Shown here: positions 33,082 through 64,000 of the stretch, one piece after another
How positions within the stretch are numbered: position 1 is the first letter of the stretch
Layout: each line of letters begins with the position of its first letter
Assembly (NCBI RefSeq): GCF_026250525.1
Contig: NZ_CP111043.1
Location: 1,289,421 to 1,353,420 of the forward strand
Reading direction: 5' to 3'
Length of the DNA: 64,000 nucleotides
Origin: Chondrinema litorale
Lineage (GTDB): Bacteria; Bacteroidota; Bacteroidia; Cytophagales; Flammeovirgaceae
Position numbers and translations under genes: made by a program
The notes under the pieces: model-generated
Database searches by the model: none
What the model was told of the DNA's origin: nothing
What the model saw: only the letters and a program-made list of their open reading frames with translations

Positions 33082-33735
33082 TCAATTTGATGTGTGATAG
33101 GCTTCTACCACATAGCAGTTTTTATCTTCTTTGCGCATCAGTACCAATGCCTGATCACCTTTATTAAGCGGAGTACCGTCGTGTGTTACCACATAAACTG
33201 TTTGGGCTATGCCATCTAGTTTTACTTCTGCCAATCCCATATTTTCACCATCAGCCGTACTTCTCAAAGTACAAACTTTGCCAACTACCTTTACATCATC
33301 TGGTTTGTTGATGTGCTTAAACATTTGCACAAAAGGCATACAAGCAACTTTGGTTAACAACAAACTCACTATAATGAGTGGGATAAATAATATTGCAGCT
33401 ACGCCCCAAGAGCTGTTTGCTAGGTAATAATTACTTAAAACAGAACCTACCCAAAGAAACAGTGCAAAAAAGCTTATCAGAATCATGATAGGGATTTCAC
33501 CTATATTGAAAAAGTAAAGCAGATTGTTGACTGCACTTCCTCCTTCTGCTGATACATCTGCGTCTGTGTCTACGTCTGCATCCATATCTATATCGGCATC
33601 CAAGTCTACGTCAACATCAAAACTGCTTAGATCAAGTACACCTACAAATGTGCCCAACCAGTAAAATGAAACCAATATCATTAAAAATGTATAAGGCAAG
33701 TTTACAGGCTCCAAAGCATAACTTAGAAATTCCAT
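33082..33735 (-). CDS. NfeD/YqiJ-like membrane protein (flotillin operon partner)
   Basis: TM helices, an acidic DVDVDLDADIDMDADVDTDADV linker, more TM helices, and a C-terminal OB-fold-like beta segment. 217 aa. Directly upstream of the flotillin gene. Confidence 0.6.
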   Translation of the reverse strand: MEFLSYALEPVNLPYTFLMILVSFYWLGTFVGVLDLSSFDVDVDLDADIDMDADVDTDADVSAEGGSAVNNLLYFFNIGEIPIMILISFFALFLWVGSVLSNYYLANSSWGVAAILFIPLIIVSLLLTKVACMPFVQMFKHINKPDDVKVVGKVCTLRSTADGENMGLAEVKLDGIAQTVYVVTHDGTPLNKGDQALVLMRKEDKNCYVVEAYHTSN

Positions 33736-51760: not shown

Positions 51761-52246
51761 ATGCGTTTCAACTTCATTTTGCTATTCATTCTACTAACTT
51801 TCAATTTAAAAGCGCAATCTGGCTTTGACTCCAACAACCTTGAGAGTTATTTAAGGCTAGAAAACTACCTTACAAAATCTGATGATATCGATAACACGAT
51901 TAATTATACCTGTGCAGTTTTTATTTCTCCTTCTGAAATTAAAATCAATGAAATAAAGAATGAATGTACACAGGAAGACGATTTTTTTGTAATAGCAGAT
52001 GATAATATCTATTATGCATATAATGCCTCGGAGTTAGTCAATTCTTTAAAAATAAAAACTGTAGATCTAACTTCTGGAACGGTAAAGTTCACCAACCCAA
52101 AAAACAAAGAAAGCTGGATTCTTAATACAGAAAAAGCCGGTGCACCTGGCTGGAACATTATCCTCTATAAGCCAGGTAGAAAACCTGCTTTTAAATCTTC
52201 TATTGACCTAAGCGAAGCAGAAATTAAAACTTATTTTGGTTTGTAA
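51761..52246 (+). CDS. secreted hypothetical protein
   Basis: Signal peptide. 161 aa. Confidence 0.35.
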   Translation: MRFNFILLFILLTFNLKAQSGFDSNNLESYLRLENYLTKSDDIDNTINYTCAVFISPSEIKINEIKNECTQEDDFFVIADDNIYYAYNASELVNSLKIKTVDLTSGTVKFTNPKNKESWILNTEKAGAPGWNIILYKPGRKPAFKSSIDLSEAEIKTYFGL

Positions 52247-52265
52247 GTAAGATAAATCACATACT

Positions 52266-52994
52266 TTGGATCAAACGAACCTCGCCACATACCTCAGTAT
52301 AGCATTACCCATTTTGGTTATGCTACTCGTTTCCATTATTCAAAAACCAATAAGGTTTAAACTAGTTATCCCCTTTGTAATAATAGTAGTTGCTTGGTTT
52401 TTCGGAATAAGAGTATTAAATAAATTTATTGAGTTTTTAATTCTGTATTCCTCAATAACAATTGTTTTAGTCTATTTGATTAAGCGACCTGTAGATAGCC
52501 ATAAAATAGCTAAACTGTCTACAGTTTTAGTAATGTGGGCGATAGTAATTATAGTATTTTTAGGGATATTTAGTATCAAACCCATCCGGCTTATTATAGT
52601 TGTACTAGCCTACCCCGGATTTATAGGAGCTCTTATTTTTTTCTATAAAAGAATTCCAAAATTAAAAAATGCCATCATTGCGATAGTTATTCTTGCTCAT
52701 ACATCCCTCTCAATCTTTATAGGAATTGGCAGTTGGAGCGGATACTTTTCTGAACAAACAATAAAGCCGTTAAGCAAAAATAACTTTATCATTTTTAAGA
52801 CAAATGGCGCATTTCTCCACTCTTATCTAAGCTGTACATTGGCTAAGAATTTTTTCGGTAAGTATATCTATTTTGAAGTTGATACAATTGCATTTAATAG
52901 TGGCAAAATTGAAGATGCGATAATTAAAGAAGATGATGAAAACCAACAGATACGAGTAACAGTAGATGAAAAAACAGAAGTGCTTCAATGGTAG
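52266..52994 (+). CDS. integral membrane hypothetical protein
   Basis: Six predicted TM helices. Confidence 0.4.
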   Translation: MDQTNLATYLSIALPILVMLLVSIIQKPIRFKLVIPFVIIVVAWFFGIRVLNKFIEFLILYSSITIVLVYLIKRPVDSHKIAKLSTVLVMWAIVIIVFLGIFSIKPIRLIIVVLAYPGFIGALIFFYKRIPKLKNAIIAIVILAHTSLSIFIGIGSWSGYFSEQTIKPLSKNNFIIFKTNGAFLHSYLSCTLAKNFFGKYIYFEVDTIAFNSGKIEDAIIKEDDENQQIRVTVDEKTEVLQW

Positions 52995-53014
52995 ATTTAT
53001 TGAGTATAGATAAA

Positions 53015-53581
53015 TCACTTCCTCTTTTTTCTTTTCTTTTGAGCGCTTAATTGTTTCTTTAATTTTGGAGACTTTATCCAACTTTCGCCAAATCGATGAT
53101 TTAGCCCAAATTCAATATCATTTATCATTTGTGAGTCAGATTGTTTCTCAATTTCTTCATTAAGGTAAGCTCTAACTTCTATCACTAATTCTTCATCCCA
53201 ATTTACCATACCACTGGCTTTTGCGCTATCAAAACTACACCTAGAATAATGAAGATACTCTAACACATATGTTGTTTTACTCTTCTCGATTAATGCTTGA
53301 CCGATTTCACCTAAATATCTATAACACCCAAAAGCTTTAACAGAAGTTTCGCAATGAGCAACAAATAAGTCCCTTAGTAATTCAACTGAAACTTCATATT
53401 TTAGGTGTCTTATTTTTTTACTGACATCGGTTCTAAATACATCATTAAGATCATAATATCCTCCCTGCTCATCCTCAAAACAGTTAAAGCGAATTTGATC
53501 TAAATCTACTTTAGAAATATAGTTTAATATAAAATTTTCAAGCTCTTGAGACATCGATGAACTGTGGGTTAATTTTAACAT
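53015..53581 (-). CDS. hypothetical protein with basic C-terminal tail
   Basis: 188-aa ORF ending in KKRKKRK. Confidence 0.35.
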   Translation of the reverse strand: MLKLTHSSSMSQELENFILNYISKVDLDQIRFNCFEDEQGGYYDLNDVFRTDVSKKIRHLKYEVSVELLRDLFVAHCETSVKAFGCYRYLGEIGQALIEKSKTTYVLEYLHYSRCSFDSAKASGMVNWDEELVIEVRAYLNEEIEKQSDSQMINDIEFGLNHRFGESWIKSPKLKKQLSAQKKRKKRK

Positions 53582-53901
53582 AAAAAGGTTAAAAACCTTT
53601 AAATTTTAGTAAAATCGAAGTATTACAACCTATATTTAGGCATAAAAAAAGTATTAGCAATCTGATTTTCAAATCTATATTTTGAATATCTATTTCAACC
53701 TTCAGCATGGAAAATAAAAATTACTTCTTGATAAAATCGAGCTTGTACTCCCTTTCATTTATTTTTTATTACTCTCAATCTCACTTCCAACTTCTAACAT
53801 AAAACACAAAATTAAAGTGCTTCATTATCTACAAATGCAAGCTATAATAGTGCTACCTACTATAACTAATAGTAATTAAAAGTAATACTTTATATAACCT
53901 A

Positions 53902-54600
53902 GTGAATAATATTTTCAATCTTATAAATTTTCATAAAAACATGAAATACCTTTATAGCACATTATTATTAATTATCATTTCTTTCTCTGCCAATGCACAA
54001 CTCAGCAAAGGGCTAAAACAAATTGGAGGATCGATTAATGCATCTCATTCAAAAACAAACTCAGAAAACCCTGGATATATATCATCCGATATTTATGATG
54101 ATAGCAGGACTAGCTTTAGTTTTTCACCTTCTTTTGGGTTCTTCATAAAAGATAATATTAGTTTAAGTGCAGGATTGGGCTATAATTATTTAAAAAATAT
54201 ATCAGAATACCCTGATGATGAAGGAACAACTAAGGAAACTTTCAAAAACAAAAGTTTTACGTTCACAATCAATAGCCGCTTTCACAAATCAGTTACAGAC
54301 AACTTTTATCTTTTTTTGCAACCATCTGCAAGCGTAAGTATCGGTAACAGACAATACGAACAACATGAAGATGAAGGCACAAAATACTACACATTTTCAT
54401 TAGGAATTAGTCCAGGTTTGCTATTTATGATTAATGAAAAATTTGGCATTGAAAGCACTTTTGGTTTTTTAGGTTATACCAAATCTAAAAATAAGCCTTA
54501 TGATGATTCTCAAACCCTCCCAAATTCAGAAAATAATAATCTAAATTTTAACTTATCTCCAAGTACATTACAGTTTGGCTTTCGATATTATTTCGAGTAA
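53902..54600 (+). CDS. outer-membrane beta-barrel (porin-family) protein, paralog 1
   Basis: Signal peptide ending ANAQL, then KGLKQIGGS. C-terminal YYFE. Clearly paralogous to the next gene. Confidence 0.5.
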   Translation: MNNIFNLINFHKNMKYLYSTLLLIIISFSANAQLSKGLKQIGGSINASHSKTNSENPGYISSDIYDDSRTSFSFSPSFGFFIKDNISLSAGLGYNYLKNISEYPDDEGTTKETFKNKSFTFTINSRFHKSVTDNFYLFLQPSASVSIGNRQYEQHEDEGTKYYTFSLGISPGLLFMINEKFGIESTFGFLGYTKSKNKPYDDSQTLPNSENNNLNFNLSPSTLQFGFRYYFE

Positions 54601-54661
54601 GACCTTAATTATCTAAGCATAATTAATTTAAAACAGCTCCTACCATAAATAATCGAATACC

Positions 54662-55309
54662 ATGAAATACATATATAGTACATTTTTACTAATCATCATC
54701 TCCATATCAGCACATGCACAATTAGATAAGGGATTGAAACAAATTGGTAGTTCATTCTCATTCAATTCAAGAGATTTTACCAATGAAAATGTGAACACCG
54801 CTTACGACGACAATGATTTTACATTAAATATATCTCCTAGATTCGGGTATTTCATAAATGATAATGTGAGTATAGGTTTTGGATTAGGATATACCAGTAT
54901 TAATAACAAAACTGAGGTTCTAAGAAACAACTCCTCTATACCCATAAATTACAAGACAACAACAAACACTTTTGATTTTTCAATTTTTAGTAGATTTCAT
55001 AAACCTATTACAGATAAGTTTTATGTTTTTTTACAACCATTTGCCTCAGCAAGTTTCGGTAAAACGCATAGTGATGAATATACTGATAATCAACAGGTAA
55101 GAAGCTTAGACATTGGTATGTCGCCAGGCCTATTATATATGATCAATAAAAACTTTGGACTTGAAAGCACTTTTGGATTTATTGGTTATAACCACTATAG
55201 TACAAAAGCTGTAGACAATCCTAGAACAGCTACAGAAACCTCACGGAATAACATTGGCTTAGATTTATCTACCTACACTTTAGAGTTAGGGTTGTATTAT
55301 TATTTTTAA
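54662..55309 (+). CDS. outer-membrane beta-barrel (porin-family) protein, paralog 2
   Basis: MKYIYSTFLLIIISISAHAQLDKGLKQIGSS. Conserved blocks shared with paralog 1 (RFHK.ITD.FY.FLQP, ESTFGF.GY). Confidence 0.5.
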   Translation: MKYIYSTFLLIIISISAHAQLDKGLKQIGSSFSFNSRDFTNENVNTAYDDNDFTLNISPRFGYFINDNVSIGFGLGYTSINNKTEVLRNNSSIPINYKTTTNTFDFSIFSRFHKPITDKFYVFLQPFASASFGKTHSDEYTDNQQVRSLDIGMSPGLLYMINKNFGLESTFGFIGYNHYSTKAVDNPRTATETSRNNIGLDLSTYTLELGLYYYF

Positions 55310-55403
55310 GAAATGATTTTAGCTAAAAAGCTGTTGAATCATCTAGCTTCAACAGCTTTTTTATTGCAAAATTCGTAATACACAAAATAATATGTGGCCC
55401 CGA

Positions 55404-55450
55404 CAGGATTCAAACCTATGAGGTCACATGTTTGATTACCAGAACGTTAC
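55404..55450 (-). other. 3' fragment of a tRNA gene (T-arm plus acceptor 3' strand), probable att site at the boundary of an integrated island
   Basis: Minus-strand reading ...CATAGGTTTGAATCCTGTCGGGGCCA gives a T-stem/loop (GGTTTGAATCC) plus a 7-nt acceptor strand and discriminator. No matching 5' acceptor strand or D-arm can be found upstream, so it is not a complete tRNA. Confidence 0.45.
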
Positions 55451-55511
55451 ATTACTTTGTAACATTGGTGTACACAAAGTAGAAACAATTTTTTTCATGC
55501 TTTTACCCTGG

Positions 55512-55919
55512 TTATGCATACACCCTAATCTTTCCCAACTGAATACTTGCCATACTCTTAACCTCTTGAAAACCTGCTATTATAGCTGTTACCTGCTTTT
55601 CAAGAACAGTAATCTTTTTCTGGAGTATTTTATTTTCTTTTTCACTTGTCTCTATATTGGGTTTTGTAACTTTTTTACTTGAAGAAATCGACACTTCATC
55701 TAAAAATGGATCACCTTGGTCTGCTATAAACCAATTTAGATTGATGTTAGGATGTAGCTCTTTCATTTTAATTACAAAATCCATTGGTACTTCATGTTTT
55801 CCATCCCAATATCTTTTGAGCATATTAGTAGTTTTTTGAAAATGGTTAACTAGCTGATATTTATCAACCTCCTTCCATTCACCAAAAATTAAACTAAGTT
55901 TATCTGATTGGTTTTTCAT
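55512..55919 (-). CDS. hypothetical protein (first gene inside the putative island)
   Basis: 135-aa ORF. Confidence 0.35.
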   Translation of the reverse strand: MKNQSDKLSLIFGEWKEVDKYQLVNHFQKTTNMLKRYWDGKHEVPMDFVIKMKELHPNINLNWFIADQGDPFLDEVSISSSKKVTKPNIETSEKENKILQKKITVLEKQVTAIIAGFQEVKSMASIQLGKIRVYA

Positions 55920-56665
55920 GAAAATTTACTTTTATTTAGGAAATAAATTTGGAAAATATATTTTGCATAAATACTTTTGAAAAACAAATTTACGAAATGA
56001 TTATACAAAATTCATTTACAAAATAACGTAAATTATTTTTAAATGATTACTTTTTATGTAAAAAAGTACCAACCAAAACTCAATTATCTATGTTTAAAAC
56101 GATTTATAAAGCTTTAAATGAGAATAGAGTTGATGATGCAAAAAGAATATGTATTCAACAACTTCATTTACAGAATAAAAGAGTTAAAAAGTCGAACGAA
56201 AAAAGATTATTGAAGGTAAATAAATAAAAAAAGCCAAGTGCTACCAACACCTGGCTTCAAGTTCAACTGTGAAATCAAACTTTTTTATAGACATGACAAA
56301 TAACGTAAAAAAAGATGAAAATTCTATCTGGCAACACAGAAGAAATTTCAACAAGCAGTGTGAAATCGAGAATCGGCAGAAGAATCGAGTAAAAAAGCGA
56401 GATACAGAAAAGCCTTTGATTCTTAAATATTTATAATTTTTCACACTCAAGAAATTCAAATAATGTTAACAACAGCTTATATAATATTAGGGATAGTTAT
56501 CCCCTGCTTGCTCATTTTACAGTATGTTATCTCCAGAAAGATTAAAAGGGAGAATGATGAACTTTTTGATAATGGGTGAAGCTTTGACTTGCCAAAGGTT
56601 AAGCCTTCACTCAATTAAGGGCTAAAAACTTGATTAAGTTTTCTAGTCTTTCCTTATAAAAGATA

Positions 56666-56694
56666 CCATGAAAGCTTAATAAGCTTTCATGGTG
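56666..56694. promoter_or_regulatory. perfect 13-bp inverted repeat ACCATGAAAGCTT-aat-AAGCTTTCATGGT
   Basis: Read directly, about 75 nt upstream of the 56770 gene. Confidence 0.5.
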
Positions 56695-56769
56695 TTCACC
56701 AAAAGTCAAGGGCAGCCAATCCCAACCACAGTCCCGGCTACCCTAATGAAATAGAAACTGCCTAAAATT

Positions 56770-58074
56770 ATGGAAAATATTAAGGATATTAATGTTTTGA
56801 AAAACTTTTTTTTGAAAATATTTACCCGAAATTACGTAGAAAAAAAGGACTATTATAGTAGGTTCTTTGGTGTATTTGCCGTTTTTACTCTTATCAGTAT
56901 TGCAGCGCAATGTTATTCTGGTTATTCAGAATTAAGCTTTTTTGAAGCTAATTTGGCATTTTTAAAGCTCCCTCATCCTTTTTACTTTGCTCTACTAACT
57001 ACAGTTCTATTTGAAATATTCAAGTCCATAGTAACCTTAAAGTTTTTTCACGAATTTTTGGGATATCCTAAATCATTTAATCTCTTTTTTTTATTATTAT
57101 CTATTACATGTATAGGTGGCTCTATCTGGTTTAGTATGCATGGTATTGAAAGAAAAACAGTAAAGAATTTCTCTCCTCCCCCAATAGATGAAAAAACGAA
57201 CAATACAGATCAAATATTCAAAAACAATTTAGCTCAAATTGATAATACCATTAAAGATATTCAATCCCGCTACACCTATCAAGGAACAGTTTATATACCA
57301 AAGTCTGGCAATAAATGGCATTCAACTGATCAAGTATCTATTGATCGAGAAAAACTAAATAAACTGGAAACTCAAAAGTCAGAACTCATTAGTGAACATA
57401 CCAAACAAAGAGCTACTCTTATAAAAGAGTTTGAATCCAGTTTAAACTCTTATAATAATAAGCTTTTAGGAGCTTTACAAGAAAACAGATATAATGTGAT
57501 ATTCTCGGAAAGTATCTACATCATATGTATGATATTTAATTGTATTTTTTCCTTTAAATCAGCATTGGAATATAGTAGTCAATCAAGTAACAACAATCAA
57601 GCACCACCTCCCAATCTTAAAGAAAAAACAAAGCAAAAAGGAGTTAATCTCAATCAAAACACCCTTGAAAAACATCAAATGAATGGCAGTCCATTCAATG
57701 ATAGCAATCTAAAGATTTTTAGGAATGAGGTTGAAAGCCAAAACAATGAAAATATGCCTTTAGGTAATGTTACTGAGACAGTAACACAGTTCGAGAAATA
57801 TACAGAATTAGGACTTACTAAAGCCCCAGAAGGATACGAACCACGAAAATGTAAATGTTGTGGTCAACCTTTTTTTGCCAATGTAGTTAATGAATCCTCT
57901 AATAAAAAAATATACTGTTCAAAAGAATGTGCAGACAAGAAAAGAAAGGAACATACCTATAAAAAAAGAGAGGAAAGAAAATTGGATAAATTAAAGCTTG
58001 TGGAAAGCAGTTTAGACTCTGCTCAGCAATGTATTTTATGGAAAAAAACTGGCACTGACAATGAAGAAAATTAA
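56770..58074 (+). CDS. membrane protein with four TM helices, coiled coil and C-terminal CxxC...CxxxC zinc-ribbon
   Basis: Hydrophobic segments. C-terminal PRKCKCCGQPF...CSKECADKKRKEH. Confidence 0.4.
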   Translation: MENIKDINVLKNFFLKIFTRNYVEKKDYYSRFFGVFAVFTLISIAAQCYSGYSELSFFEANLAFLKLPHPFYFALLTTVLFEIFKSIVTLKFFHEFLGYPKSFNLFFLLLSITCIGGSIWFSMHGIERKTVKNFSPPPIDEKTNNTDQIFKNNLAQIDNTIKDIQSRYTYQGTVYIPKSGNKWHSTDQVSIDREKLNKLETQKSELISEHTKQRATLIKEFESSLNSYNNKLLGALQENRYNVIFSESIYIICMIFNCIFSFKSALEYSSQSSNNNQAPPPNLKEKTKQKGVNLNQNTLEKHQMNGSPFNDSNLKIFRNEVESQNNENMPLGNVTETVTQFEKYTELGLTKAPEGYEPRKCKCCGQPFFANVVNESSNKKIYCSKECADKKRKEHTYKKREERKLDKLKLVESSLDSAQQCILWKKTGTDNEEN

Positions 58075-58102
58075 ACCAAATAGCAACTAGACAATTACCA
58101 TT

Positions 58103-58537
58103 ATGGAAAAAGTAATACATAAAGTCATTGAGTCTGAAAAACCGATAAGGCTCTTACATAAGCATATTAAAGCCTACAATAAAGATAAGTCACTTGGTCT
58201 TCAAATTAGAGAACAACACACAAAAACTGCTGAGACTATTTTTAAAATTGCCATCAAGAAAAATGTGAACTTTTCTAACCCATTACACACCAGTTTAGTG
58301 GAACTGGGGCAGGAAAGATATGTATGTGGGTATTTTAAAGACAATGGTGCATCTATCGCTTCACAATTAAATATCCATGTAAAAAGCTTAGATAGTCATA
58401 TAGAACGGCTTGCAATAGCAGGTATATTAACCGCTTATAAAGTAACTCTAAACGGTGGAAATATCAGAAGAAAAGGGAATCATAAAGAAACCCTTTTTGC
58501 CATCAACAGTCAATTTTTTAACCTAAGCAATCAATAG
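58103..58537 (+). CDS. hypothetical protein
   Basis: 144-aa ORF. Confidence 0.35.
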   Translation: MEKVIHKVIESEKPIRLLHKHIKAYNKDKSLGLQIREQHTKTAETIFKIAIKKNVNFSNPLHTSLVELGQERYVCGYFKDNGASIASQLNIHVKSLDSHIERLAIAGILTAYKVTLNGGNIRRKGNHKETLFAINSQFFNLSNQ

Positions 58538-58738
58538 AATGATATCTGAATTTCATAATCTGCCACCACCGTAAATTAATCTTTCATATTCGAGAAAGTG
58601 AAAAATTGTGCGCACAATTTAGAGACTTTAAATAATGTCTATAACAACGTAAAAACAGGCAAGTGAAATTTCTTTGCCTTTACTTTCCGAAGTACTTGGA
58701 ATACTTTTCCACCTTCTGGAAGTAAGGCCTTACTGTGT

Positions 58739-58806
58739 CAGAAAGACTTACCTAAAAACTTTCTGAAATTACTTACAGAAAATACTTTCAGAAAGCTTTC
58801 AGAAAG
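58739..58806. repeat. array of four CTTTC(A/T)GAAAG palindromic iterons (two perfect tandem copies at 58785..58806)
   Basis: Read directly: TCAGAAAGA, CTTTCTGAAA, CTTTCAGAAAG and CTTTCAGAAAG within 70 nt. Confidence 0.6.
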
Positions 58807-58807
58807 T

Positions 58808-59089
58808 GTGAGAAGTAGGAAGAGTTTTGAGCATAAAAGAAAAATTTCAAAAATGATGAATGGTTCAAATTTGATGAATAGTGCAGAAAAAGAGCGAAAG
58901 TACAGGTGCATTGTAAAAGTATCAGGTGAAAAGTTTGTAAAATATAATACCAGTAACCTGCTTGATTTTACTGATTTTTTAGATAAAAAGTATCCAAATT
59001 GGCGCTGGTTCAATGTCTACAACAAAAAAAACAGAAAGCAAATAGGCAGTTTTACAAAAAAGCGAAGACCTAATCAAAAAAATATTTAA
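58808..59089 (+). CDS. small basic protein, hypothetical
   Basis: 93-aa Lys/Arg-rich ORF starting immediately after the iteron array. Confidence 0.25.
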   Translation: MRSRKSFEHKRKISKMMNGSNLMNSAEKERKYRCIVKVSGEKFVKYNTSNLLDFTDFLDKKYPNWRWFNVYNKKNRKQIGSFTKKRRPNQKNI

Positions 59090-59214
59090 GACGCAGGAAA
59101 AGAGTATCATAACTCTTTATTGCTTGGCAACTGCAACTAAAAATAAGTTGCAACAATTCAAAAGGGGGGACATTTATTAGTCCTCCCATCATTTAAACCA
59201 ATTCAGTAATTACC

Positions 59215-59805
59215 ATGCAATTAAAATACACAAATAGAGAAGTATCAGAAATGAGTATTTCTGATTTAATGAAAGTTATTAATAACCCATCAGTGGTTGA
59301 AATCTCTAGAAAGAATGCTAGAGATAGTTTGGATGCATTGATCAAAGAGCACTATATCAAACAAAATGCTTTTTCACCAATAAATACTCTTTCGAAGTGT
59401 CAAAAGAACTCTTTGATAAAACTGTGGGTAGTATTTAAAAATTCAAAAAAAACTGAGGGTTGGGTAGAAAGGTATTACAGCATAGATTATCCTCATGAAA
59501 GAGAGCTATTTAAAGACCAAGAACTCATTGAAACCCGACTAAAAAATGAAAACATTCATTTTGTAAAAAACTTCTATGGTTATAATAAACCTCTTACTGG
59601 CTATAAAAAGTTATATGATTTAGCAATGAATTACTACAGACAAGGCAGAGTTTTGCACATGAAATTCTACTTAAATACAGTGTATGAACAACAGGAAAAT
59701 GGAGAGTTCATGCCTAAAGAATTATATGGTTGGTCGATTGACAATTCATATAAACAGTATAATCAAAATAATGACTCAACTGGAAAAATTATTACAATGA
59801 TTTAA
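59215..59805 (+). CDS. hypothetical protein
   Basis: 196-aa ORF. Confidence 0.35.
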   Translation: MQLKYTNREVSEMSISDLMKVINNPSVVEISRKNARDSLDALIKEHYIKQNAFSPINTLSKCQKNSLIKLWVVFKNSKKTEGWVERYYSIDYPHERELFKDQELIETRLKNENIHFVKNFYGYNKPLTGYKKLYDLAMNYYRQGRVLHMKFYLNTVYEQQENGEFMPKELYGWSIDNSYKQYNQNNDSTGKIITMI

Positions 59806-59970
59806 TTATGATTTTATAAAACTTATTCTTTTCACTCAGAATAAACACCTTAAATTAGGCATCTATATATCATTTACTTGATATTATAATTGAATGATCT
59901 TAATATATTCGAATTGCAAATTATGTATTTTTAATTTAATGATTTTATCTACAATTATTTGTATAATTGA

Positions 59971-60444
59971 GTGTTGATTTTAAAAAAAAAGAAGCTGAAA
60001 ATGAAGTTAGATAACTTTAAGCGATATCAAAATGGACTAACTTTAGATACTTTATTTCCAAAATTAATGGGTGTTTGCGCATGTGGTTGTGCAAATAAAC
60101 TAGAAGGAAGGCGAAAAAAATGGTATAGTGATGAATGTAGAAAAAAAGCACTTTTTGAATTTTATATTATAAAAGGAGATCCTACTTTTATAAGAAAACT
60201 ACTTTTTGAAATTGATAAAGGATTTTGTAGAAGTTGTGGCTCTTCCGATGAAGAATGGGAAGCAGATCATATTATACCAGTAACATTGGGAGGTGGAGCC
60301 TGTGGACTAGACAACTACCAAACATTGTGTAAACATTGCCATATTGAAAAATCAAAATTAGATACTATCCCAAATAGCTCTTATGTTTTTACATCCAGAT
60401 TTAATATCATTTGTAATTCTTATTATCGAATTAGGGCAGATTGA
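59971..60444 (+). CDS. HNH endonuclease domain protein
   Basis: CRSCGSSDEEWEADHIIPVTLGGGACGLDNYQTLCKHCHIEKSKLD HNH motif with paired Cys ligands. The C-terminal tail probably over-extends into the convergent gene. Confidence 0.65.
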   Translation: MLILKKKKLKMKLDNFKRYQNGLTLDTLFPKLMGVCACGCANKLEGRRKKWYSDECRKKALFEFYIIKGDPTFIRKLLFEIDKGFCRSCGSSDEEWEADHIIPVTLGGGACGLDNYQTLCKHCHIEKSKLDTIPNSSYVFTSRFNIICNSYYRIRAD

Positions 60445-61041
60445 AGTAAAATCTCTAAAAACATCATAAGATATACAAAGCTTGTTATCTAGCTGTTCAT
60501 TATCAAATACAATATTTTCAATTGCATACATGTATAGAATTGCAGAAATATATTTAGATGTATCTTCTGGTAATTCTGTACTTTGACTAATATGAACTTT
60601 ACCTATTCCGAATTTATTTATTCCTTTATTGTTTACTTTCCTTATTATGATATCTGGATTAACACTTACATCAACTCCTTCAATTATTATATTCTTTTTA
60701 TGAATATCTAAAGCAGAATAAATTAAGTTTTTATTTATTGCATTCGTGTTCAACACAAATTCTAAGGCCTCAATTGAATTCCTTTTTTCATTTTCTAAGA
60801 AATCATTATTAATACCTTTATTTCTTAGATAATCTAAACATTTTAAAATAATCTCAGCATTAAAGTTACTTTGTAGATAAGCATTAATTGCTTTTCTTGC
60901 ATCAGAATAATAAGTATAAGTAAAACGGTTTTCATCTGGATTTTTGAATGTTTCAAGAATTTTACGTTGACGTGTAGAATTGGCCGTCAAAAATTCGCCT
61001 AGCTTATTTATAGAAATTTTTGGTGTGTTCTTATTAGTCAT
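60358..61041 (-). CDS. hypothetical protein
   Basis: 227-aa ORF convergent with the HNH gene. Confidence 0.4.
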   Translation of the reverse strand: MTNKNTPKISINKLGEFLTANSTRQRKILETFKNPDENRFTYTYYSDARKAINAYLQSNFNAEIILKCLDYLRNKGINNDFLENEKRNSIEALEFVLNTNAINKNLIYSALDIHKKNIIIEGVDVSVNPDIIIRKVNNKGINKFGIGKVHISQSTELPEDTSKYISAILYMYAIENIVFDNEQLDNKLCISYDVFRDFTSICPNSIIRITNDIKSGCKNIRAIWDSI

Positions 61042-61261
61042 GATAATAAATTATTATAAATCAGAAAAAACTACTATTATTTGATCAAAGTCATAAATTA
61101 ATCAAATAATAGTAAATATATTAATTATTCAAATAATTGACTCCTAATAAATTATTGATTCAAAACATCAAATATTAGATGATTCTCTTAATAAAATCTA
61201 TAGAAAGTAGTAGGGTAAATTATATATATTTAGTCAACCAATTAAATAACAAACTAATCAG

Positions 61262-61771
61262 ATGAAGGATCTGCTAAATAAGATATCGTCATATAACATT
61301 TTCAATTATCTGTTCCCTGGTGTCTTATATGCAGTCATTATAAGTAAAATAACAAAAATTAATATCTTACAAGAAGATATACTTGTTGGAGCTTTTCTTT
61401 ATTATTTCATAGGTCTTGTCATAAGCCGTATTGGTTCTTTGTTAATTGAACCATTTTTAAAGAAAATCAAATTCATAAAGTTTGCTGAATATTCTGACTT
61501 TATTCAAGCATCTAAAGATGATCCAAAAATTGAGGTTTTATCAGAATCAAATAACACTTATAGAACTCTGACTTCATTATTTTTTTTGATTATTATTTCC
61601 AAAGTCTTTTTATTGTTATCAAATAAATACCAATGGCTTATAGACTATAAATGGTATTTTATCTCCAGTAGCCTTTTAATAATGTTTGCTTTTTCTTATA
61701 GAAAACAGACTATTTATATCACAAAAAGAATTAAAAATTCATTGAAAAGTAAAAACAGAATTATATCATGA
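61262..61771 (+). CDS. integral membrane protein (four TM helices), hypothetical
   Basis: Hydrophobic helices. 4-nt overlap (ATGA) with the downstream MBL gene. Confidence 0.4.
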   Translation: MKDLLNKISSYNIFNYLFPGVLYAVIISKITKINILQEDILVGAFLYYFIGLVISRIGSLLIEPFLKKIKFIKFAEYSDFIQASKDDPKIEVLSESNNTYRTLTSLFFLIIISKVFLLLSNKYQWLIDYKWYFISSSLLIMFAFSYRKQTIYITKRIKNSLKSKNRIIS

Positions 61772-62643
61772 GCAATCATTGTGAAGTTGTCTTTTGGGAT
61801 GTGCAACATGGTCATATGACATATATTAAAACTCCTAATAACAGACATATTGTAATAGATTTGGGAACTGGGGATTATTCAAAAGGAATTGAGAATTTTA
61901 GCCCATTACTTCATCTAAAAAATAAATACAAAGTAAATCAGCTTGATTACGTTATCATTACTCATCCCCACCTAGATCATATTGACGACATTCTCAATTT
62001 TGATGCTTTGAAACCAAGAGTATTACTTAGGCCAAATCATTTAAGTAATGATGAAGTAATGGAGAGAGTACTTGAAAGAGACAGAGCAAAATTTGAAAAA
62101 TATTGTGAAATAAATAATAGATACAACCAACCAATTGATCCAAGTTCAATTGATGATAAATCAAATCCTAGTAATTGGGGTGGGCTTGAAATAAAAACCT
62201 TTATTCCAAAATCTTGTAATCATAACAATTTTAATAATCATAGTATAATAAGTGTTTTTGAATTTGCAAATATAAAAGTTGTAATACCTGGAGATAATGA
62301 AAAATGCTCTTTTGACGAGCTTATGTCTAAAAATGATTTTGTTGAAGCTATATCAAATGCTGATATTTTACTAGCTCCTCATCATGGACGTATGTCAGGA
62401 TTTAATAACGACTTTGTTAAGGCTGTAAATCCTAGAATAACTGTTGTATCAGACTCCAAGTTTTGTGACACAAGTGCTAATGCAAATTATACTGCAAAAA
62501 GTAGAGGATGGACTGTACACAATAAAAGTAATTTCACTTCAAAACAAAGAAAATGTTTAACAACAGCTTCTGATGGAGAAGTGGTAGCACATTTTGGATA
62601 TCAACCAAGTGGCAGGAGTTATCTAAAGGTAATGATTAAATAA
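61768..62643 (+). CDS. metallo-beta-lactamase-fold hydrolase (ComEC C-terminal-domain-like)
   Basis: HPHLDHIDD (HxHxDH) motif. N-terminal VVFWDVQHGHMTYIKTP..IVIDLG resembles the ComEC MBL domain. Downstream His and Asp ligands (LAPHHGR). Confidence 0.55.
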   Translation: MSNHCEVVFWDVQHGHMTYIKTPNNRHIVIDLGTGDYSKGIENFSPLLHLKNKYKVNQLDYVIITHPHLDHIDDILNFDALKPRVLLRPNHLSNDEVMERVLERDRAKFEKYCEINNRYNQPIDPSSIDDKSNPSNWGGLEIKTFIPKSCNHNNFNNHSIISVFEFANIKVVIPGDNEKCSFDELMSKNDFVEAISNADILLAPHHGRMSGFNNDFVKAVNPRITVVSDSKFCDTSANANYTAKSRGWTVHNKSNFTSKQRKCLTTASDGEVVAHFGYQPSGRSYLKVMIK

Positions 62644-62892
62644 GAAAATTGAACTTGCTGTTATATGATAATCATAATTTTTGATTTCCCCTTTTTGTGA
62701 ATGGATCAAAAAGTATTTTTGAAATTCTTTTACATTAAAAAAGTAAATAATGATAATTTCACCAAATTAAATATATCGTTTAATTTTAACAGGGTATTAG
62801 CATTACGTCTATTATATTCATTATTTGAATATTAAGCTATTCTGATGCTTAATAAATTTTTTTCTTTTTTAGATATTTAATAGAAATATATA

Positions 62893-64000
62893 TGCATGTT
62901 AAAAAACTAAAAATAGTAAAGTTATATGGTTATATTGATAAAGTAATTGACTTCAATCATGACTTAACTATACTTGTCGGAATTAATGGGGCAGGAAAGA
63001 CTAGTATATTAAATATTGTTAATTGGATTCTTAGGCCATCTCTACCAAATTTATGTGTGACCGACTTTAAGTCACTCACACTATTTTTTGAATACCAAAA
63101 AGAAAATTACGAAATAAATTGCATCCATTATAAATCAACTTTTCGCTATAAATTGAAGGTAGGGAGCAGTCAAATGCATCCTCTTATAGTGAAATTGAGA
63201 GAACATCCCTCAAATATTGAAAATAATGAAAATCTTAAACAACAAGTACTTCAAAGTTATTTGCATCTAGGTCCAGATGATAAGGAGAAAAAAACTTGGC
63301 AAGTTATTTCTAAATTCCCAAAACCAACAGTTGTAGGTTTAGATAGACATTTATATGCAGAAGAGTCTGAACAAGTATTTGTTGAAGACAGCTTGAAAGG
63401 AGATGTCATTAGAAGAAAACAAAAAGTGTCTATTTCTCCACTTGATCGTGTAAAGGAAATAATAAATAAAGAATATAGAAAACAAAAAAACTCAATTCTT
63501 AACCTTACAAATTCTCTTAAAAATCACTTAATGCTTTCGGCTTTTAATGGAAGTATTACTGAAGAATCCTTTTCAAGTGGAATTAGATACAAACTCACAT
63601 ATCAACAAATAGAAAATGCTGAAAATCGAGTACATGACTATTTTGAGAATTTTGAAGAGACAATCTTTGGAGATTCGGAAAAGGAAACAGTAAAAAAATA
63701 TTTTTCTGATTTAAAAGCTATTACTACAGAATATCAAAATAACCCTGAAAAAGACATTGTAAAACTCCTATACGGATTAAATGCAAACCAATTTATAAAA
63801 GTCAGAAAACTACTTCGTGAATTCGAAAAATTTGAAGAAAAAGTTTCAAAAACAACTGCACAAATTCAAAACTATTTACAAACTTTAAATTATTTTTTTA
63901 AAGATTCTGGTAAGGAAATAGCGTTTAAAGAAGATACTTTTGAATTAACTTTTAATACAATTAATAGAAAAGGAGAGATAGAAATCAAATATAAAGATAT
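62893..64000 (+). CDS. SMC/RecF/OLD-like ABC ATPase, 5' partial (runs off the window)
   Basis: N-terminal KLKIVKLYGYIDKVIDFNHDLTILVGINGAGKTSILN P-loop of the RecF/SMC/OLD ABC class. Long alpha-helical region follows. No stop before the window end. Confidence 0.6.

What the first reader, a model, noticed from the sequence alone, without database searches (positions are those of the whole stretch)
61262..62643. Overlapping membrane protein and ComEC-like MBL hydrolase gene pair inside the island
Seen: a 169-aa four-TM protein and a 291-aa MBL-fold protein (HPHLDHIDD motif and a ComEC-like N-terminal strand) overlap by 4 nt, so they are translationally coupled.

A free-standing ComEC-type nuclease or hydrolase domain, split from a small membrane anchor, is not a standard competence gene arrangement. 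Located in a putative defense island, it could be a membrane-anchored nuclease or phosphodiesterase acting as an effector. One possibility is degrading incoming DNA or cyclic nucleotide signals.
Basis: inference. Interest (0 to 1): 0.55.

Follow-up and report, generated by a model that had tools for sequence, protein, structure and literature searches.

The report
Membrane protein plus ComEC-like nuclease pair
This overlapping gene pair is a small four-helix membrane protein plus a cytoplasmic ComEC-type metal-dependent hydrolase; it belongs to a candidate anti-phage system already catalogued as PADLOC PDC-M48, which is widespread and mobile but for which I found no experimental test.

Summary
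ORF A (61262-61771, 169 aa) and ORF B (61768-62643, 291 aa) overlap in ATGA.

- **B** is a complete MBL-fold enzyme. Its closest solved relative is the ComEC nuclease domain (9IC4), and every catalytic residue shown by mutagenesis in ComEC is conserved.
- **A** is a four-helix membrane protein with a strongly basic cytoplasmic tail.
- **Identity:** both match the PADLOC candidate-system models PDC-M48A and PDC-M48B at full length (E 3e-66 and 1e-153). The pair is therefore already catalogued, although I found no paper naming or testing it.
- **Distribution:** homologues are patchy across more than 10 phyla and occur on plasmids. They have no conserved housekeeping neighbours.
- **Context:** they sit beside or inside type I and type IIG restriction-modification systems, Gabija, SIR2, DRT and toxin-antitoxin genes.
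- **Modularity:** B stays conserved while its partner is swapped among several 4-TM types (some Csx27-like), a patatin lipase and a 2-TM type. Some operons add an E2-E1-JAB protein of the 6A-MBL kind.

Most likely this is a two-gene defence module with a latent DNase held at the inner membrane face by its partner. That mechanism is inferred, not shown. It is a new member of a known candidate kind and of moderate interest.

The parts
61262..61771 (+). ORF A, 169 aa: four-helix inner-membrane protein, PADLOC PDC-M48A family (type T1)
   Evidence: ORF. PDLC04670, E 2.9e-66, residues 1-160 of 164 model positions; 2941 homologues. AF2 pLDDT 83.3. No Pfam or NCBIfam family.
61295..61354 (+). A predicted TM helix 1 (about aa 12-31), with the conserved Y11-N12..N15..P19-G20 motif at its start
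   Evidence: (invariant columns).
61379..61447 (+). A predicted TM helix 2 (about aa 40-62), conserved YYFIGxxxSRxGS
61448..61561 (+). A conserved soluble loop (aa 63-100, E63-P64 ... D87 ... N98-x-Y100-R101-T102), predicted cytoplasmic; candidate docking surface for B
   Evidence: Conservation. Topology is inferred from the positive-inside rule. The docking role is inference only.
61562..61624 (+). A predicted TM helix 3 (about aa 101-121), the most hydrophobic segment
   Evidence: (mean hydropathy 2.5).
61649..61699 (+). A predicted TM helix 4 (about aa 130-146), less hydrophobic, ending in the invariant F142..Y146-R-K148-Q149
61700..61768 (+). A basic C-terminal tail (aa 147-169; 8 K/R, 0 D/E), predicted cytoplasmic
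61768..61771 (+). ATGA: the start codon of B overlaps the stop codon of A
   Evidence: Tight juxtaposition holds in 50 of 54 related loci.
61768..62643 (+). ORF B, 291 aa: cytoplasmic ComEC-type MBL-fold binuclear-metal hydrolase (predicted DNase), PADLOC PDC-M48B
   Evidence: PDLC04675, E 1.4e-153, 1-289 of 291 positions; 100% identical to the NCBI 'ComEC/Rec2 family competence protein [Chondrinema litorale]'. ComEC chains, E 1.8e-16. AF2 pLDDT 90.3, pTM 0.91; 9IC4, E 3.5e-15. The N-terminus has no signal peptide.
61963..61980 (+). MBL motif 2, H66-P-H68-L-D70-H71. It aligns with ComEC H598-P-D600-A-D602-H603.
   Evidence: ComEC mutagenesis of these residues is reported in PMC12455585.
62293..62295 (+). 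D176 (PGDN), the bridging Asp. It aligns with ComEC D700.
62380..62385 (+). H205-H206 (PHHG). H205 aligns with ComEC H725.
62020..62185 (+). Ordered, mostly helical insertion of about 55 residues (aa 85-139) between MBL motifs 2 and 3, which the profile alignment to ComEC chains does not cover
   Evidence: the alignment to ComEC breaks between profile positions 77 and 149; helices 94-98 and 103-118, pLDDT above 90. Its role is unknown.

Best explanation
The pair is a member of the two-gene candidate anti-phage and anti-mobile-element system that PADLOC calls PDC-M48.

B is a cytoplasmic, free-standing homologue of the ComEC nuclease domain. It is a binuclear-metal phosphodiesterase and most probably a DNase. 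A is a four-helix inner-membrane protein made from the same transcript, so the two are probably produced in matched amounts.

Proposed mechanism, all of it inferred:
1. B is held, and kept latent or locally confined, at the cytoplasmic face of the membrane by the conserved cytoplasmic loop and basic tail of A.
2. On infection or DNA entry the complex lets B cut DNA, either the invading DNA at its point of entry or total cellular DNA, which would be abortive infection.
3. The membrane partner supplies localisation, sensing or gating.

The module is portable. The same B enzyme is combined with interchangeable membrane partners. In some genomes it sits under extra regulators, either an E2-E1-JAB protein of the 6A-MBL kind or a type IIG-like methyltransferase-nuclease. 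The window carries the minimal stand-alone form.
For: **Identity (shown)**
- Both proteins match the PDC-M48A and PDC-M48B models at full length.

**B is a ComEC-type enzyme (shown by sequence and model)**
- The PDB profile search puts ComEC chains first, at E 1.8e-16.
- The AF2 model (pLDDT 90.3) matches the ComEC beta-lactamase-like domain 9IC4 best, at E 3.5e-15. Pce and then CPSF-73/RNase J follow.
- B residues H66, H68, D70, H71 and D176 align with the ComEC residues reported as involved in Mn2+ coordination, and H205 aligns with H725, which that paper treats as a putative DNA-binding residue. The paper made alanine mutants of all six and reports that most of the metal-ligand mutants are virtually inactive (PMC12455585; alignment). 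H68, D70, H71, D176 and H205 are invariant in 23 homologues and H66 is conserved in at least 90% of them.

**Related defence MBLs are DNases**
- The MBL nucleases of Hachiman, AVAST, Lamassu and DRT resemble ComEC and are experimentally DNase effectors (10.1101/2025.09.03.673762 and PMC12799240).
- B gives weak hits to the LmuA, RTasMBL and Avs1a MBL models.

**A and B are functionally linked**
- 50 of 54 loci are tightly juxtaposed.
- The order is reversed but adjacency is kept in L028 and L030.
- The T1-type A protein also pairs with a second PDC-M48B clade.

**Mobile and defence-associated**
- 66 loci occur in many phyla, and the pair is on plasmids.
- 150 flanking genes hit 346 PADLOC families at E<=1e-10. 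As a control, 57 other ORFs of this window hit 1 family.
- The pair is embedded in type I restriction-modification operons (L037, L040), fused to type IIG operons (L022, L024, L026), and next to Gabija, SIR2, DRT-UG5, HicAB and HigB.

**Topology**
- The positive-inside rule places the loop and tail of A in the cytoplasm. B has no signal peptide.
Against: - I found no experimental evidence of defence for PDC-M48. No paper in the library contains the name.
- In this window the flanking ORFs are ORFans, and only weak defence hints are present.
- One close homologue (L072, 74% identity) lies among mostly housekeeping genes.
- DNase activity, metal content and an A-B interaction are all untested.
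- ComEC's MBL domain alone binds DNA very weakly and needs an OB fold. B has no recognised DNA-binding domain.
- The partner can be a patatin phospholipase or a CBASS-like 2-TM protein (weak). That pattern is more typical of swapped effectors than of anchors.
- The second-best structural match is a phosphorylcholine esterase, so a non-nucleic-acid substrate is not excluded.
Confidence: 0.5

Rival explanations
1. Abortive-infection module in which the membrane partner is the killing effector, acting as a pore or depolariser as Csx28 and the CBASS TM effectors do, or as a lipase in the patatin variants. The conserved MBL enzyme B would be the upstream sensor or activator, for example by producing or removing a nucleic-acid-derived ligand or by directly gating A.
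For: - B is highly conserved (40-79% identity) while the partner position is filled by at least 7 unrelated-looking or very distant types.
- These include a patatin phospholipase with a TM insert (Pfam Patatin 1e-11).
- They also include a type that weakly hits the PADLOC CBASS '2TM effector' model (E 0.0039).
- Several partner types match the Csx27 model (hhalign 96.7% between types).
- This is the swapping pattern known for effector modules.
Against: - No known signalling enzyme is encoded with the pair.
- MBLs of this ComEC-like clade act as terminal DNase effectors in the defence systems where they have been tested.
- Csx27 itself is reported to down-regulate Cas13b rather than to kill (PMC11662929).
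Confidence: 0.22
2. Membrane-associated DNA uptake or degradation device analogous to a split ComEC. This is how a review (PMC7642515) summarises the idea of Makarova et al. 2019 for the Csx27 family. A would form an ssDNA conduit and B would degrade one strand or the imported DNA, with no dedicated antiviral role.
For: - The catalytic domain is homologous to that of ComEC.
- It is paired with a polytopic membrane protein.
- PMC7642515 summarises Makarova et al. 2019 as finding Csx27-family 4-TM proteins in operons with natural-transformation components and predicting ssDNA channels.
- E2-E1-JAB neighbours occur as I recall that paper describing them.
Against: - The ComEC MBL domain works on the outer face of the membrane. 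B has no signal peptide and is predicted to be cytoplasmic.
- A has only four helices and no similarity to the Competence domain.
- The T1 family to which A belongs is not significantly related to the Csx27-like types (hhalign probability 0.6%; only 85% over the first hairpin against type T3).
- The distribution is that of a mobile accessory gene in defence contexts.
- No other competence genes lie nearby. I found only one CoiA_N neighbour, in L072.
Confidence: 0.1
3. B is not a nuclease. It would be a phosphodiesterase acting on a lipid or cell-envelope phosphodiester (as Pce and NAPE-PLD do) or on a nucleotide second messenger, working on or with membrane components.
For: - The second-best structural and sequence neighbours are the pneumococcal phosphorylcholine esterase Pce/CbpE.
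- B is membrane-associated through A.
- A patatin lipase can be the alternative partner.
- There is a faint Pfam PDEase_II hit (E 0.07).
Against: - ComEC is clearly the best match in both searches.
- ComEC-specific sequence features are shared: the N-terminal DVxxG strand, NN.S and PHHG.
- A tested defence MBL of this kind had DNase activity once activated, whereas tests on beta-lactam, choline-ester and RNA substrates showed no activity for the MBL alone.
- No cyclase or CD-NTase appears among the 25 most frequent neighbour families listed.
Confidence: 0.1
4. Selfish addiction or toxin-antitoxin-like cassette of mobile elements, in which one product neutralises the other, with no benefit against phages.
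For: - The pair occurs on plasmids and in variable islands, often next to toxin-antitoxin pairs.
- It has a tight two-gene operon structure.
Against: - Both genes are large compared with typical type II toxin-antitoxin pairs.
- No DNA-binding antitoxin domain is present.
- Embedding inside restriction-modification and Ub-like defence operons points to defence.
- The distinction from abortive-infection systems is partly semantic.
Confidence: 0.05

Closest known systems
PADLOC-DB v2 candidate system PDC-M48 (PDC-M48A + PDC-M48B)
   Same: Both window proteins match the family HMMs over their full length (E 2.9e-66 and 1.4e-153). They are adjacent and on the same strand. Other clades of the same candidate system were seen in L067 and L068.
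   Different: No difference in architecture. PDC-M48 is only a bioinformatic candidate: no paper in the searchable library mentions it and I found no functional data.
ComEC/Rec2 C-terminal beta-lactamase-like nuclease domain (e.g. Moorella glycerini, PDB 9IC4)
   Same: Same MBL subfamily. It is the best hit by sequence and by fold. The residues H598, D600, D602, H603, D700 and H725 that were mutated in ComEC are conserved in B as H66, H68, D70, H71, D176 and H205. The DVxxG strand and the NN.S and PHHG motifs are shared.
   Different: - B is free-standing, with no OB fold and no Competence channel domain. TIGR00361 scores 48.9 bits against a cut-off of 190.
- B has no signal peptide, so it is cytoplasmic rather than on the outer face.
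- Motif 2 is HxHxDH rather than HxDxDH.
- B carries an ordered insertion of about 55 residues and four invariant Cys.
- Identity is only about 18%.
Csx27-family 4-TM proteins and their operons with ComEC-like, ubiquitin-system and DNA-modification genes (Makarova, Gao, Zhang, Koonin 2019, FEMS Microbiol Lett 366:fnz088; the paper could not be read, so I rely on summaries in PMC7642515 and PMC11662929 and on memory of the abstract)
   Same: - Partners of B in other genomes hit the PADLOC Csx27 model. The L059 type scores E 6e-9 at full length, and it links to type T2 by hhalign (96.7%).
- Those operons carry E2-E1-JAB fusions or type IIG-like methyltransferases. From memory, the abstract of that paper describes both kinds of operon; the summaries I could read cover only the natural-transformation link and the four TM helices.
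- All types share the architecture of two TM helices, a cytoplasmic helical insert, two more TM helices and a basic tail.
   Different: - The window's own A (type T1) does not hit the Csx27 model at E<=1.
- It is not significantly related to the L059 type (hhalign 0.6%).
- The only link is an 85% hhalign match over the first hairpin to type T3 and 17-23 bit HMM scores.
- No cas13b is present in the window.
Protease-activated MBL nucleases of Hachiman, AVAST, Lamassu and DRT (HamM; the 'trypsin-MBL module')
   Same: These are ComEC-like MBL-fold enzymes recruited as DNase effectors by unrelated defence systems. B weakly matches the LmuA, RTasMBL and Avs1a MBL models.
   Different: - No trypsin-like protease is encoded next to the window pair.
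- The partner is a membrane protein instead.
- The insertion in B is predicted to be ordered and helical, not a disordered inhibitory loop.
- The model scores are weak, with E between 1e-8 and 1e-3.
6A-MBL anti-phage system (MBL enzyme + Cap2/Cap3-like E2-E1-JAB fusion; NCBIfam NF058524 and NF058523; attributed to van den Berg et al. 2024 in PMC13276650)
   Same: In L045, L020 and L035 a B-family gene and its partner directly follow an E2-E1-JAB fusion. In L045 and L020 a 6A-MBL-type MBL gene also lies upstream, and in L045 it reaches the NCBIfam cut-off.
   Different: The window has no E2-E1-JAB gene. B itself scores 30 bits against a cut-off of 220 on the 6A-MBL enzyme model, so it is a different MBL from the signature enzyme.

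Membership tests
PADLOC PDC-M48 (candidate defence system) | Protein matching a PDC-M48A HMM | tested here: met
   PDLC04670, E 2.9e-66, 220.7 bits, residues 1-160 of 164 model positions.
PADLOC PDC-M48 (candidate defence system) | Protein matching a PDC-M48B HMM | tested here: met
   PDLC04675, E 1.4e-153, 508 bits, residues 1-289 of 291 model positions.
PADLOC PDC-M48 (candidate defence system) | The two genes adjacent and co-oriented | tested here: met
   4-nt overlap, same strand.
PADLOC PDC-M48 (candidate defence system) | Demonstrated protection against phage or other mobile elements | not testable with these tools
   No paper contains 'PDC-M48'. The term does not occur in the main text of the PADLOC embedded-systems preprint.
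Metallo-beta-lactamase fold superfamily | Conserved metal-binding motifs: Asp (motif 1), HxHxDH (motif 2), His (motif 3), Asp (motif 4) and His (motif 5) | tested here: met
   D31, H66xH68xD70H71, H158 (replaced by F in 2 of 23 sequences), D176 and H205-H206 are invariant or nearly so. Pfam Lactamase_B scores 32.3 bits, above the 22.7 cut-off. The AF2 model has an MBL fold.
ComEC/Rec2 competence protein | MBL nuclease domain with the ComEC catalytic residues | tested here: met
ComEC/Rec2 competence protein | Polytopic Competence channel domain and full-length model score | tested here: not met
   TIGR00361 scores 48.9 bits against a cut-off of 190, covering only model positions 441-635. No Competence domain is found in A or B. 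The current NCBI name 'ComEC/Rec2 family competence protein' therefore overstates what is there.
ComEC/Rec2 competence protein | N-terminal OB fold (DUF4131) | tested here: not met
   No such Pfam hit in A or B.
Csx27 family (type VI-B1 CRISPR accessory 4-TM proteins) | Four predicted transmembrane helices in a protein of about 160-230 aa | tested here: met
Csx27 family (type VI-B1 CRISPR accessory 4-TM proteins) | Significant profile similarity to Csx27 | tested here: inconclusive
   The window's A has no Csx27 hit at E<=1. T1 against the Csx27-like L059 type gives hhalign probability 0.6%. T1 against T3 gives 85% over 58 columns. The T3 HMM scores T1 proteins at 17-23 bits. Other partner types do match Csx27.
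Csx27 family (type VI-B1 CRISPR accessory 4-TM proteins) | Encoded next to cas13b | tested here: not met
   No Cas protein is found among 57 window ORFs at E<=1e-10 or in the immediate neighbours.
Trypsin-MBL (HamM-type) proenzyme modules | [quoted passage not shown] | tested here: not met
   The neighbours are A, a 227-aa ORFan, an HNH gene and an ABC-type ATPase. None has a protease domain.
Trypsin-MBL (HamM-type) proenzyme modules | Inhibitory insertion loops over the active site | tested here: inconclusive
   B has an insertion (aa 85-139) not covered by the profile alignment to ComEC, but it is predicted to be ordered and helical.
6A-MBL anti-phage system | MBL enzyme reaching the NF058524 cut-off | tested here: not met
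   30.1 bits against a cut-off of 220.
6A-MBL anti-phage system | Cap2/Cap3-like E2-E1-JAB fusion in the operon | tested here: not met
   Absent from the window. It is present upstream of B homologues in L020, L035 and L045.

The most novel reading that the evidence does not exclude
The ComEC-like enzyme and its swappable membrane partner form a portable two-component 'membrane plus DNase' cassette with a mode of action not yet described. The partner could gate or release a latent cytoplasmic DNase in response to envelope perturbation or DNA entry. Alternatively, pore or lipase activity and DNA degradation could fire together. Different upstream sensors would plug this cassette in: an E2-E1-JAB protein of the 6A-MBL kind, type IIG-like enzymes, or none, as in this window. 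If the T1 family of the window is a true distant branch of the Csx27 superfamily, working out this pair would also explain what Csx27 does in type VI-B CRISPR systems.
Probability: 0.2. Interest if true: 0.65.

Novelty: new member of a known kind. Interest (0 to 1): 0.4.

Why it matters
PDC-M48 is one of many PADLOC candidate systems for which I found no experimental work. This analysis shows four things about it:
- Its enzyme keeps every catalytic residue validated in the ComEC nuclease.
- The pair is widespread: about 1300 clusters at 90% identity for B and about 2900 for A.
- It moves between phyla and onto plasmids.
- It is wired into restriction-modification systems, ubiquitin-like 6A-MBL operons and Csx27-like membrane proteins.

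A demonstration of function would add a membrane-coupled nuclease to the known defence repertoire. It could also clarify the long-unexplained role of Csx27-type membrane proteins. On the practical side, the current RefSeq name 'ComEC/Rec2 family competence protein' is misleading, because the protein lacks the channel and OB domains.

Tried and rejected
- **Extending the window downstream.** I tried exact-protein look-up of P0001 and P0121. Neither is on record, so the rest of the ATPase gene and the right end of the island remain unseen.
- **Reading Makarova et al. 2019.** I tried the DOI and the PMC id and neither is held. I relied on citing papers and on memory of the abstract, and I flag this wherever it is used.
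- **Searching for 'PDC-M48'.** It gave 0 papers. The PADLOC embedded-systems preprint has no mention of PDC-M or MBL in its main text.
- **Homologue search with the Csx27-like L059 partner.** It returned 26 proteins, none named Csx27, so no authentic Csx27 sequence was available for direct comparison.
- **Promoter, terminator and Bacteroidota -7 motif scans around the pair.** Nothing exceeded chance.
- **tblastn of B against 50,697 phage records.** No match.
- **tRNA scan of the window for an integration site.** None found.
- **Cyclic-nucleotide phosphodiesterase reading.** Rejected as the leading idea because PDEase_II scores only E 0.07, no cyclase appears among the 25 most frequent neighbour families listed, and PDE1 ranks far below ComEC.
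- **Downstream ATPase or upstream 227-aa ORF as a third component.** Rejected, because neither has a tblastn homologue in any of the 66 related loci.
- **True competence gene.** Rejected; see the membership test.
Full report
**Observation**

The window contains ORF A at 61262-61771 (+, 169 aa) and ORF B at 61768-62643 (+, 291 aa). The ATG of B overlaps the TGA of A in the tetranucleotide ATGA. The HPHLDHIDD motif is at residues 66-74 of B.

B is 100% identical to an NCBI protein of Chondrinema litorale (Bacteroidota, Cytophagales, Flammeovirgaceae), so the window is from that chromosome. There the protein is named 'ComEC/Rec2 family competence protein', and A is named 'hypothetical protein'.

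**What B is**

- Pfam sees only the N-terminal half as Lactamase_B (32 bits).
- NCBIfam's ComEC model scores 48.9 bits, far below its cut-off of 190, and covers only the C-terminal MBL part of the model.
- A profile of 23 homologues searched against PDB sequences puts ComEC chains first (30bt E 1.8e-16, 9ic4 E 2.5e-15). The pneumococcal phosphorylcholine esterase Pce/CbpE and CPSF come next.
- An AF2 model is confident (pLDDT 90.3, pTM 0.91). Its best Foldseek match is the crystal structure of the ComEC beta-lactamase-like domain of Moorella glycerini (9IC4, E 3.5e-15, TM 0.64-0.69). Pce, PNGM-1, CPSF-73/INTS11 and RNase J follow.

The paper describing 9IC4 shows that this domain is a Mn2+-dependent endonuclease and 5' exonuclease. 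It names H598, D600, D602, H603 and D700 as residues involved in Mn2+ coordination and H725 as a putative DNA-binding residue, and it tested alanine mutants of all six. It reports that most of the metal-ligand mutants are virtually inactive, with D600A reduced about five-fold (PMC12455585).

Counting along the HMMER alignment, these residues correspond to B residues H66, H68, D70, H71, D176 and H205. H68, D70, H71, D176 and H205 are invariant in the 23-sequence alignment and H66 is conserved in at least 90% of it. The ComEC-type N-terminal strand (DVxxG) and the NN.S and PHHG motifs are shared as well.

So the MBL motifs are complete and of ComEC type. B nevertheless differs from ComEC in several ways:
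- It lacks the OB fold and the Competence channel.
- It has no signal peptide.
- It carries an ordered, helical insertion of about 55 residues between motifs 2 and 3.
- It has four invariant cysteines of unknown role.

**What A is**

A has no Pfam or NCBIfam family. Hydropathy and an AF2 model (pLDDT 83) give helices at 11-31, 40-68, 77-86 plus 89-122, and 130-168.

The C-terminal 23 residues carry 8 K/R and no acidic residue. By the positive-inside rule, both termini and the conserved loop at residues 63-100 face the cytoplasm, which is where B is expected to be.

**Identity of the pair**

Against PADLOC-DB, A matches PDC-M48A (PDLC04670, E 2.9e-66, full length) and B matches PDC-M48B (PDLC04675, E 1.4e-153, full length). 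The pair is therefore an already catalogued candidate defence system.

No paper in the searchable library contains that name. It does not occur in the main text of the PADLOC preprint on embedded systems either. I found no experimental test.

**Distribution and linkage**

B has 1330 cluster-level homologues at E<=1e-3. The best 120 are all about 290 aa long and 61-79% identical. A has 2941.

A scan of one genome per species returned 66 loci. Most are in Bacteroidota. Others are in Alphaproteobacteria, Campylobacterota, Clostridia, Bacillus, Dehalococcoidia, Planctomycetota, Opitutales, Rhodothermales, Longimicrobiales, Terriglobia and Treponema.

Eight plasmids carry the pair, including haloarchaeal ones and a 15.9-kb MobQ plasmid of Methylocystis. 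None of 50,697 phage records does.

In 54 loci with an upstream co-oriented ORF of at least 140 aa, 19 overlap the start of B by 1-17 nt and 31 leave 0-20 nt. In two Campylobacterota loci the order is B then A. The linkage is therefore conserved and not a chance overlap.

**Partner swapping**

The upstream partner is not always the same protein.

| Partner type | Loci | Length |
|---|---|---|
| T1, the window's type | 21, plus 2 in reverse order | 161-191 aa |
| T2, 4-TM | 10 | about 230 aa |
| T3, 4-TM | 10 | about 200 aa |
| Patatin-like phospholipase with a TM insert (Pfam Patatin 1e-11) | 3 | 455-472 aa |
| Smaller groups | a few each | various |

One of the smaller groups weakly hits the PADLOC CBASS '2TM effector' model.

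Links between the types:
- The L059 type matches the PADLOC Csx27 model at full length (E 6e-9). T3 and the L060 type match it weakly.
- The L059 type and T2 are related by hhalign at 96.7%, and T3 and T2 at 84%.
- The window's T1 family is linked only weakly. It scores 85% over the first TM hairpin against T3 and 17-23 bits with the T3 HMM. It shows nothing against the L059 type and has no direct Csx27 hit.

Whether A belongs to the Csx27 superfamily is therefore inconclusive, although the architecture and genomic position are the same. Conversely, T1-type A proteins also pair with a second, only 25%-identical MBL clade (PDLC04673, motif HPDGDH as in ComEC).

**Larger operons**

Immediately upstream of the partner some loci carry one of the following:
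- An E2-E1-JAB fusion (L020, L035, L045). In L020 and L045 it is preceded by a second MBL. In L045 that MBL reaches the NCBIfam cut-off for the 6A-MBL system enzyme.
- A type IIG-like methyltransferase-nuclease of 950-1130 aa that overlaps the partner (L022, L024, L026).
- Subunits of type I restriction-modification systems, HsdS in L040 and the HsdR C-terminus in L037, so that the pair is embedded in the system.

A review summarises Makarova et al. 2019 as finding Csx27-family membrane proteins in operons with components of the natural-transformation machinery (PMC7642515). That paper's further links to ubiquitin-system and DNA-modification genes I know only from its title and from my memory of its abstract, because I could not read the original. 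With that caveat, the three architectures above match what it described. The window holds the minimal two-gene form.

**Defence context**

I took the two nearest genes of at least 100 aa on each side of the pair in loci L001-L051, 150 proteins in all. At E<=1e-10 they hit 346 PADLOC families. These include type I MTase, S and R subunits, type IIG enzymes, mad2 and mad5, E1-E2 and JAB, LmuA, and further PDC-M48B copies.

As a crude control, 57 ORFs from the rest of this window hit one family. The tool does not report how many individual proteins had a hit, so this is a rough contrast and not a statistic.

Individual annotated contexts agree:
- Gabija lies directly upstream, and HEPN-Toprim, an integrase and IS91 lie downstream (L068).
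- SIR2, HigB/HTH and DRT UG5-nitrilase flank the pair in L067.
- HicAB is a neighbour in L073.
- HsdR and SIR2 are neighbours in L074-L077.
- One locus sits among mostly housekeeping genes (L072).

No conserved housekeeping neighbour exists.

In the window itself the evidence is thinner:
- GC falls to 27-30% from about 52-55 kb to the window end.
- The ORFs between 55.4 and 61 kb have no Pfam family.
- An HNH endonuclease lies upstream.
- A truncated ABC/SMC-type ATPase with weak PtuA/AriA/GajA similarity lies downstream.
- Neither the ATPase nor the upstream 227-aa ORF accompanies the pair elsewhere.

**Mechanism**

Shown by computation: B is a complete ComEC-type binuclear-metal hydrolase, and it is genetically locked to a membrane partner in mobile, defence-rich contexts.

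Established elsewhere: ComEC's domain is a DNase. The ComEC-like MBLs attached to Hachiman, AVAST, Lamassu and DRT are latent DNases released by a trypsin-like protease. B weakly matches those MBL models, but no protease is encoded next to the window pair.

Inferred: B is a latent or spatially confined DNase docked on the cytoplasmic loop or tail of A. It is released or activated on infection or DNA entry, and it destroys either invading DNA at the membrane or all cellular DNA.

The main rival reverses the roles. In it the swappable partner (4-TM, 2-TM or patatin) is the membrane-damaging effector and B is the upstream component. The swapping pattern favours this rival.

Other rivals rank lower. 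They are a split-ComEC DNA uptake or degradation device, a non-nucleic-acid phosphodiesterase, and an addiction module. The reasons are given under each rival.

**Verdict**

Its mechanism and the anchor-and-effector roles are untested, and the cyclic-nucleotide idea has no support.

It is a new member of a known, uncharacterised candidate kind. Interest is moderate (0.4). It is raised by the wide distribution, the intact nuclease site, the modular partner exchange and the links to Csx27 and 6A-MBL. It is lowered because the family is already catalogued and nothing here goes beyond inference about function.

Noticed in passing
window 62892-64000 (+), cut by the window end: N-terminal 369 aa of an ABC/SMC-type ATPase with weak similarity to PtuA (Septu), AriA (PARIS) and GajA (Gabija) models (best E 1.4e-9). 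No homologue lies next to any of the 66 related loci. It is probably part of a separate defence system whose remainder lies beyond the window.
   Followed up: partly
window 59971-60444 (+) and 60358-61041 (-): An HNH endonuclease ORF (Pfam HNH 5e-10, GTG start) converges on a 227-aa ORFan with no family and overlaps it by 87 nt. One of the two ends may be mis-called.
   Followed up: no
window about 52000-64000: GC content drops to 27-30% against 33-40% in the first 50 kb. ORFs at 55.4-61 kb (135, 434, 144 and 196 aa) have no Pfam family. This is a compositionally distinct ORFan island. No integrase or tRNA was seen inside the window, and its right border lies beyond it.
   Followed up: partly
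window 25935-30854 (-), with 30972-33029 (-) and 33082-33735 (-): A 1639-aa ORF has a p97/Cdc48-like AAA+ segment at aa 1247-1320. One ORF of the window hits Pfam DUF3686 'ATPase involved in DNA repair' at 3e-187, and one hits PADLOC mad2 at 6.6e-15. This giant ORF is the likely source of both hits, but the aggregated output did not say which ORF matched.
   Followed up: partly
B protein, residues C113, C150, C233, C263 (window 62104-62106, 62215-62217, 62464-62466, 62554-62556): These four cysteines are invariant in all 23 aligned homologues of a cytoplasmic enzyme. They could form a structural Zn or Fe-S site.
   Followed up: no
L045:5577-10846, L020:5755-10852, L035:5804-10867: The operons read [6A-MBL-type MBL] - [E2-E1-JAB fusion] - [patatin-TM or T2 4-TM partner] - [B-family MBL], with overlapping or abutting genes. 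The PDC-M48-like cassette therefore appears as an extension of 6A-MBL-type ubiquitin-like systems. The upstream MBL was tested only in L045 and L020.
   Followed up: partly
L022 and L024 (6143-10879), L026 (1055-5437): A type IIG-like N6-methyltransferase/Eco57I-family protein of 950-1130 aa overlaps a small membrane partner, which is followed by a B-family MBL. This may be a membrane-linked restriction-like variant.
   Followed up: partly
L028:3-1319 and L030:10001-11338: In two Campylobacterota loci (Nitratifractor and Sulfurovaceae) the gene order is reversed, with B first and the T1-type A protein directly downstream.
   Followed up: partly
L067:8001-9385, L068:8001-9381: T1-type A proteins pair with a second MBL clade (PADLOC PDLC04673). 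It is only 25% identical to the window's B and has no precomputed Pfam hit. Its motif 2 reads HPDGDH, which is closer to ComEC's HPDADH.
   Followed up: partly
L069:5971-16337: Several group II intron RT/maturase (GIIM) gene fragments are repeated around a PDC-M48 pair in a metagenomic contig. This suggests a hotspot of intron insertion in that island.
   Followed up: no
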